A DNA stretch of 64,000 nucleotides from Eledone cirrhosa (lineage: Eukaryota): assembly GCA_964016885.1 (NCBI GenBank), contig OZ024743.1, positions 278,070,001-278,134,000 on the forward strand. Direction: 5' to 3'. The stretch's first letter is position 1, and every line of letters begins with the position of its first letter. Made by a program: the position numbers and the translations under genes. A model generated the notes under the pieces. That model searched no databases and had not been told where the DNA came from. It saw nothing but the letters and a program-made list of their open reading frames with translations. This document shows, piece after piece, positions 55,305-55,665 of the stretch.

Positions 55305-55665
55305 AAAGAAAAAGGGATGAAATCGAAAATGCAACTGAAGTCTTATTTTTTTTTAAATATATATATTTATTTGGTTCCTTTACCGGTTTCGCAGTTCTTC
55401 TGCTTTGCTTTTCAAAAGGTGAGTTGAGATGGAGGGTCTGTGGTTTTTCTCACATGTGAGAAAAACCACAGACCCTCCATCTCAACTCACCTTTTGAAAA
55501 GCAGAAGAACTGCGAAACCGGTAAAGGAACCAAATAAATATATATATTTAAAAAAAAAATAAGACTTCAGTTGCATTTTCGATTTCATCCCTTTTTCTTT
55601 ATACTTCCACTCGTGTAGGACACCTCGGTTATTTTTCATTTTGTAAAAAAAACCTCACTTTCTAA
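55305..55665 (+). mobile_element. Spacerless palindromic insertion with U3-A8 HHR (55490-55527)
   Basis: Centre CTCACA|TGTGAG at 55454/55455, arms ~150 bp. CCTT-TTGAAAA-GCAG AAGAA CTGC-GAAA-CCGG-TA-AAGG. TA-flanked. Confidence 0.8.

What the first reader, a model, noticed from the sequence alone, without database searches (positions are those of the whole stretch)
55490..55527. Natural U3-A8 hammerhead core (UUGAAAA) fixed in a family
Seen: perfect helices I (CCTT/AAGG), II (GCAG/CTGC) and palindromic III (ACCGGT) with GUA, but the core reads UUGAAAA rather than CUGANGA. The same core is in the inverted arm and in the diverged copy at 38762-38798. Known: C3-G8 is a Watson-Crick pair in the active fold and U3-A8 is a tolerated compensatory variant. 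Inference: this is a selected variant, not decay, and standard CUGANGA searches would miss it.
Basis: partly seen in the sequence, partly recalled or inferred. Interest (0 to 1): 0.72.

Follow-up and report, generated by a model that had tools for sequence, protein, structure and literature searches.

The report
U-A core hammerhead in Penelope retrotransposon
This is a small RNA motif of the self-cutting hammerhead type at the end of a very abundant jumping gene; its swapped U-A core pair is real, shared by several jumping-gene families in this genome and already in print, and it likely cuts only slowly and in pairs.

Summary
Window 55490-55527 is a minimal type I hammerhead with a UUGAAAA (U3-A8) core. 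It lies in the terminal repeat (pLTR) of a young Neptune-type Penelope-like element (PLE; RT + GIY-YIG). Of 11,632 genomic copies matched on the 3' half, 10,850 have this core, 42 have C3/A8, 15 have U3/G8 and none has CUGANGA. Cross-family data support it. Seven more families keep U3-A8 while N7, N17 and the helices change, including one whose RT-endonuclease is only 57% identical. One U3-A8 family is homologous to two C3-G8 families. Against an active ribozyme: the predicted fold pairs U3 with the cleavage-site A17, a sister family spread with an A13C core, and this copy would be buried in a 150-bp hairpin. Activity is untested. U3-A8 is already reported in Schistosoma PLE hammerheads with the same heptamer (PMC4209133) and elsewhere (PMC3088659). 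This scan also noted it before, in three other genomes and once in this one. Verdict: new member of a known kind.

The parts
55490..55527 (+). Minimal type I hammerhead motif: helix I 4 bp, helix II 4 bp, palindromic helix III; predicted cleavage after A17 (55523)
55494..55500 (+). Core U3 U4 G5 A6 A7 A8 A9 (U3-A8 in place of C3-G8)
55517..55522 (+). Self-complementary ACCGGT; predicted to form a 6-bp intermolecular helix III in the homodimer
55451..55671 (+). 5'-truncated pLTR end of the Neptune-type PLE, long 3' end (with tail); 98.2% identical to full-length copy L112
   Evidence: two 3' ends
55302..55458 (-). Inverted 5'-truncated arm of the same insertion, short 3' end (no tail); symmetry centre 55454/55455
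55377..55419 (-). Hammerhead of the inverted arm: same core, 5-nt duplication before helix II
55239..55305 (.). (TA)n microsatellite on the left of the insertion; another TA-rich repeat at 55665-55718 on the right
38729..38948 (+). Older copy of the family (75.6% identical), U3-A8 core at 38765-38771, weakened helices II and III
13284..13319 (+). Copy of sister family A': U3-A8 core, compensated helices I and II, but GCAA in place of GAAA (A13C)

Best explanation
This is the minimal hammerhead motif in the terminal repeat of a young, high-copy Neptune-type Penelope-like retrotransposon, whose U3-A8 core pair is kept across many related families and likely lets full-length transcripts cut themselves slowly, as dimers. 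Shown: the motif sits in both direct repeats of full-length elements, 198 nt before ORF1 and about 1 kb after the RT/GIY-YIG frame, and U3-A8 is the family state. Inferred: two motifs pair through ACCGGU into a double hammerhead, U3 pairs with A8 as C3 does with G8, and the RNA is cut after GUA, probably with help from the element's protein. This particular copy is a truncated inverted insertion in a (TA)n repeat; read-through RNA is predicted to form one long hairpin, so it is likely inert.
For: Family state: 10,850 of 11,632; C3/A8 42, U3/G8 15, C3-G8 0; 34 of 34 motifs in 20 long copies. Element: RVT_1 + GIY-YIG, CX4CX2C linker, motif in both direct repeats 4.7-4.9 kb apart. Conservation: family B has 57.5% RT-EN identity, a different helix II and C17, yet the same core. 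Families C, D, E, F, I keep U3-A8 with N7 = U, C, G or A and different helices. Family D (U3-A8) is homologous downstream to G and H (C3-G8), z 4.6 and 5.6, 1 and 0 of 500 shuffles. Family I (U3-A8) carries an RT 46-58% identical to that of H. Mismatched 3-8 descriptors give 325 and 375 hits (controls 254, 176) against 13,715 for C3-G8. The double hammerhead is the predicted dimer minimum, -22.5 against 2 x -7.5 kcal/mol. Literature: U3-A8 natural and called active in vitro (PMC3088659); PLE minimal hammerheads cleave weakly as dimers (PMC4209133); the Anolis PLE hammerhead needs the protein (PMC11167929).
Against: No activity data for any of these motifs. The predicted ground state pairs U3 with A17 (probability 0.5-0.6, about 1.7 kcal/mol), like the inhibitory C3-G17 pair that costs 8- to 100-fold or more (PMC3884650). 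In one full double-mutant scan only G3-C8 rescued the 3-8 pair (PMC9901934). Sister family A' spread with A13C in 8 of 8 held insertions. About half the family has a 3-bp helix I. Cleavage was not needed for PLE insertion in vitro. One older family copy has C3-G8 (L063). The control for the U3-A8 descriptor was high (3,019 against 4,875), so that count alone shows little.
Confidence: 0.66

Rival explanations
1. Inherited relic: U3-A8 was selected in an ancestor, but in this family the ribozyme is now dispensable or nearly inactive, and the core is uniform only because all copies come from recent master elements.
For: A' amplified with A13C; a subfamily with a G-U closing pair and a mismatch in helix II; 3-bp helix I in about half the copies; predicted U3-A17 trap; hammerhead mutants do not impair PLE insertion in vitro; Naiad PLEs thrive without hammerheads.
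Against: All 34 motifs in the 20 long copies have the U3-A8 core and the CCTT strand, and 31 of 34 match the motif exactly. Families A and B keep the core at 57.5% protein identity, with compensated helices.
Confidence: 0.24
2. Non-catalytic use: the fold serves to dimerise the RNA or to bind the element's protein near the reverse-transcription start sites, and cutting is incidental.
For: Palindromic helix III is kept in families A, B, C, E, I and in A' despite its broken core; the motif lies about 75 and 145 nt before the two 3' ends.
Against: The conserved letters are exactly the catalytic ones, N7 is free, and position 17 is never G in the families listed, though the descriptors required H17. 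The 3-8 pair matters only in the active fold.
Confidence: 0.09
3. Decay or chance: two C-to-T / G-to-A hits on a CUGAAGA core, or an accidental match.
For: Both changes are common transitions.
Against: 0 of 11,632 copies have CUGANGA and single variants are 0.36% and 0.13%. C3-G8 with this helix III gives 6 unstructured or junction hits genome-wide.
Confidence: 0.01

Closest known systems
U3-A8 minimal hammerheads of Schistosoma mansoni Cercyon PLEs (Cervera and De la Pena 2014, PMC4209133)
   Same: U3-A8 core, about 1,300 hits there; S. mansoni(4) begins with the same UUGAAAA heptamer and its S. japonicum look-alike has CUGAAGA; pLTR location; inverted pairs and solo truncated copies.
   Different: Here there is no extra base between A9 and G10.1, helix II is 4 bp, helix III is a 6-nt palindrome and N17 is A (U in S. 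mansoni(4)). Copy number is about ten times higher, and U3-A8 spans two PLE lineages in one genome.
Natural U3-A8 hammerheads (Perreault et al. 2011, PMC3088659)
   Same: C3-G8 to U3-A8 covariation in natural ribozymes.
   Different: That paper ascribes tolerance of variant cores to tertiary contacts; none is evident in this minimal motif.
Neptune clade of EN+ Penelope-like elements (Craig et al. 2021, PMC8557442)
   Same: RT + C-terminal GIY-YIG, CX2-5CxxC linker, (TA)n targets, partial tandems, inverted 5'-truncated arm, optional tail, ORF1 set off by a frameshift.
   Different: Tail is about 68 nt here against 30-40 bp described. Clade assigned by features, not by a tree with reference elements.
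Poseidon_Ac hammerhead of Anolis (Frangieh et al. 2024, PMC11167929)
   Same: pLTR hammerhead; two 3' ends matching two RT start sites.
   Different: C3-G8 core overlapping the ORF start; shown to be protein-assisted, which is untested here.

Membership tests
Minimal type I hammerhead ribozyme | Core U4 G5 A6 N7, A9, G12 A13 A14, A15.1-U16.1, H17 | tested here: met
   sequence
Minimal type I hammerhead ribozyme | Watson-Crick 3-8 pair | tested here: met
   U3-A8 in 10,850 of 11,632; joint change between families D/I and G/H; mismatches rare
Minimal type I hammerhead ribozyme | Helices I and II with compensatory variation, G10.1-C11.1 closing pair | tested here: met
   helix I is only 2 contiguous bp in families B and C
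Minimal type I hammerhead ribozyme | Short palindromic helix III allowing a double hammerhead | tested here: met
   ACCGGT; predicted dimer minimum is the double hammerhead; prediction only
Minimal type I hammerhead ribozyme | Match to an Rfam hammerhead model | tested here: not met
   a canonical-core motif in the window is missed too, so Rfam is not a defining test for these short forms
Minimal type I hammerhead ribozyme | Site-specific self-cleavage | not testable with these tools
   needs in vitro assay
EN+ Penelope-like element | RT followed by C-terminal GIY-YIG endonuclease | tested here: met
   (RVT_1 above cut-off in L053, slightly below in L112; GIY-YIG above in both)
EN+ Penelope-like element | pLTR direct/inverted repeats holding the hammerhead, 5' truncation, optional tail | tested here: met
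Neptune clade | CX2-5CxxC linker before the endonuclease and (TA)n targets | tested here: met
   the linker alone does not separate Neptune from Nematis
Neptune clade | RT phylogeny with reference Neptune elements | not tested
   no reference proteins fetched
Non-LTR retrozyme | Short non-coding head-to-tail tandem units, one hammerhead each | tested here: not met
   family A units are 4.7-4.9 kb coding elements or solo/inverted ends; 466-bp tandem units in this genome carry a C3-G8 core

The most novel reading that the evidence does not exclude
U3-A8 cores combined with an A at the cleavage site (families A, F, I and part of C) form a built-in safety catch: U3 pairs with A17 in the ground state, and the ribozyme fires only when dimerisation and the element's own protein flip U3 onto A8. 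In this A8 background even A13C, fixed in sister family A', may be tolerated as an undescribed active core.
Probability: 0.13. Interest if true: 0.62.

Novelty: new member of a known kind. Interest (0 to 1): 0.27.

Why it matters
The variant itself is known. What this genome adds is scale and a natural comparison set. U3-A8 hammerheads number at least 10,850 exact copies in one family, fall into eight families in two PLE lineages, and have C3-G8 relatives. Natural N17 = A, C or U versions allow a direct test of whether U3-A17 pairing throttles cleavage, and the A13C sister family allows a test of whether PLEs need their ribozyme at all, which is still open (PMC8557442, PMC11167929). CUGANGA-only descriptors would undercount hammerheads here by roughly half: 13,715 C3-G8 hits against at least 10,850 for family A alone.

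Tried and rejected
A DNA similarity search of the own genome returned nothing because common words are skipped; patterns worked. Rfam gave only hairpin and microsatellite noise among the 150 of 368 rows shown and no hammerhead match on the two focused stretches. Sequencing runs: no RNA holder listed, which is no evidence on expression. Contigs laid on the pLTR showed no other letter at U3 or A8 at the 3% threshold, but cannot show transcripts; the single contig from 'organism B' is too thin to use. I considered an intron starting at the GUA triplet (GTAAAG ... pyrimidine tract ... TGTAG). It is not kept in families B and C and no joint supports it, so I dropped it. The per-region divergence rates are biased, because many loci were selected by exact motif or by core variant, and are not used. 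No tree of families was built: RT pieces were too patchy. Three primary papers on 3-8 swaps and PLE dimers (Przybilski and Hammann 2007, Nelson and Uhlenbeck 2008, Lunse et al. 2017) are not held; I saw only their titles.

Full report
Observation. The motif is as described: CCTT, TTGAAAA, helix II GCAG/CTGC, GAAA, CCGG, T, A, AAGG at 55490-55527. It lies in the right arm of an inverted repeat centred on 55454/55455, flanked by (TA)n on both sides. The left arm has the same core but a 5-nt duplication before helix II. Both arms map to the end of one element, so they are one insertion. The 38762 copy is 75.6% identical over 238 columns and has the core but weakened helices. A third, more distant copy lies at 13254-13318.

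Family state. The window comes from a 3.0-Gb genome (organism not determined). The 27 nt downstream of the core occur 11,632 times, reversed control 0. Of these, 10,850 are preceded by TTGAAAA, 42 have C3, all CTGAAAA, and 15 have G8, all TTGAAGA. None has CUGANGA. An upstream-anchored search found 2 C3-G8 hits, one of them an older family copy (L063), which two independent hits could explain (inference).

The element. [quoted passage not shown] I fetched 20 of the 144 scored RT matches, chosen for a 775-aa open frame. All 34 hammerhead motifs in them have CCTT-TTGAAAA, and 31 match the 34-nt motif exactly. In L112 the motif stands in both direct repeats, 4,679 bp apart, 198 nt before the ORF1 ATG and about 1,045 nt after the RT-EN stop. 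Copies end at two places 68 nt apart; the window's left arm has the short end and the right arm the long end. Partial tandems, inverted truncated arms, tails, the zinc-finger linker and (TA)n targets are the features given for Neptune-type PLEs (PMC8557442, passages). The clade label rests on these features, not on a tree.

Is U3-A8 selected? Uniformity in a young family only reflects its master copy, so I looked across families; the letter names are mine, assigned by eye. A descriptor excluding family A's helix II gave 4,875 hits. Its control was high (3,019), but 30 of 30 loci fetched fall into four recurring structured families: B 15, C 11, D 2, E 2. F appears among the listed rows, I emerged, and A'. 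Across them N7 is A, U, C or G, N17 is A, C or U, and helices I-III differ but mostly still pair, while U3 and A8 stay. Helix I is weak in B and C. Full-length B has the motif in both repeats and an RT-EN only 57.5% identical to A. Family D (U3-A8) aligns with G and H (C3-G8) beyond the motif: z 4.6 and 5.6, with 1 and 0 of 500 shuffles reaching the score, of 15 pairs tested. Family I lies downstream of RT pieces 46-58% identical to those of H. So positions 3 and 8 changed together within that lineage, separately from the A/B lineage; this is inferred, with no tree. Genome-wide, a shared descriptor gives 13,715 C3-G8, 325 U3-G8 and 375 C3-A8 hits (controls 218, 254, 176). The mismatched rows listed (100 each) read as single variants of the large families or as noise.

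How it likely works. Folding predicts helices I and II in the monomer with no helix III. The homodimer minimum is the double hammerhead, -22.5 against 2 x -7.5 kcal/mol. PLE minimal hammerheads cleave weakly and as dimers (PMC4209133, parts 1-2 of 4; PMC6765202, passages). The Anolis one needs the element's protein (PMC11167929, parts 1-2 of 4). I therefore infer slow, dimer- and probably protein-assisted cutting after GUA in transcripts of full-length tandem elements. This copy is predicted to fold into one hairpin of about 150 bp (-246 kcal/mol) that buries the motif, so it is likely inert.

Against activity. U3 can pair with A17 and extend helix I (probability 0.5-0.6 in family A, 0.74 in I). 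The analogous C3-G17 pair slows hammerheads 8- to 100-fold, and at least 300-fold in minimal forms (PMC3884650, passages). Yet four of the seven families with intact GAAA use A17 at least in part, so it is not avoided. In a full double-mutant scan of one type III hammerhead only G3-C8 rescued the pair (PMC9901934, passages), whereas PMC3088659 (passages) cites U3-A8 as active in vitro. Sister family A' has compensated helices and U3-A8 but GCAA for GAAA in 8 of 8 insertions found in the 1.63 Mb held; one arm of one insertion has GAAA. A13 is a consensus core base (PMC7151607, passages), so a family can probably spread with a crippled core. Hammerhead mutants did not impair insertion in vitro.

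Comparison with what is known. Cervera and De la Pena reported U3-A8 in S. mansoni PLE hammerheads, about 1,300 hits, missed by their first descriptor. Their supplement lists a PLE-linked motif starting UUGAAAA and an S. japonicum look-alike with CUGAAGA (2 of 12 places seen, file 1 not searched, figures not seen). Perreault et al. first reported natural U3-A8. Searches for the variant listed no paper on cleavage rates of a U3-A8 PLE hammerhead, but three primary papers were not held and may contain them. I also saw passages of PMC12602865 and bioRxiv 2026.07.22.740005, which did not bear on the core. Earlier scan notes reached the same reading in three other genomes and one other piece of this genome; I had reached it before reading them.

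Verdict. A real, conserved and probably slowly active U3-A8 minimal hammerhead of a Neptune-type PLE. It is a new member of a known kind. Its value is as a natural test set for the role of N17 and for whether these elements need their ribozyme.

Noticed in passing
window 13284-13319 (+); also L100, L121, L140, L167, L182/L241, L201, L263: Sister family A' with U3-A8, compensated helices I and II, and A13C in the GAAA box in 8 of 8 held insertions; either a dead ribozyme that spread anyway or an undescribed core variant. One copy (L263) has an endonuclease fragment upstream, 43-52% identical to family A.
   Followed up: partly
L112:1559-4995 and other long copies (outside the window): ORF1 (400 aa) overlaps the 775-aa RT-EN frame in the -1 frame at a U UUU UUA heptamer (43 of 43 rows, some loci overlapping) with a predicted hairpin 7 nt downstream: a likely programmed -1 frameshift. 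An ORF1 frameshift with pseudoknot is already noted for PLEs (PMC8557442 Fig. 1 legend).
   Followed up: partly
window 49984 (-), 1764 (-), 2479 (+): A second hammerhead family with canonical CUGAAGA core, an extra G before a 6-bp helix II and a 4-5 bp helix I; 7 of 14 motifs in the 664-kb sample.
   Followed up: partly
G000:C1:5,738,326-5,752,444 and others; L217-L234: Head-to-tail arrays of about 466-bp units, each with a C3-G8 hammerhead and palindromic ACTAGT helix III, ending in an inverted unit: looks like a non-LTR retrozyme.
   Followed up: no
L031, L033 (natural C3/A8 copies of family A): With C at position 3 the motif is predicted to misfold, CUUCUG pairing with CAGAAG of helix II and loop II; in this background a return to C3 would be disfavoured.
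   Followed up: partly
window 38644-38690: Truncated remnant resembling the 3' half of another minimal hammerhead (helix II strand, GAAACGTA, ACAGG) just upstream of the 38729 copy.
   Followed up: no
window 20738-23132: Tandem array of a 310-bp unit, 7.7 copies, 99% matches; the hammerhead scan found no motif in it.
   Followed up: no
window 49462-49621, 13599-13678, 60961-61141: Further near-perfect palindromes that drew miRNA-type Rfam matches below threshold; likely fold-back junctions of repeats.
   Followed up: no
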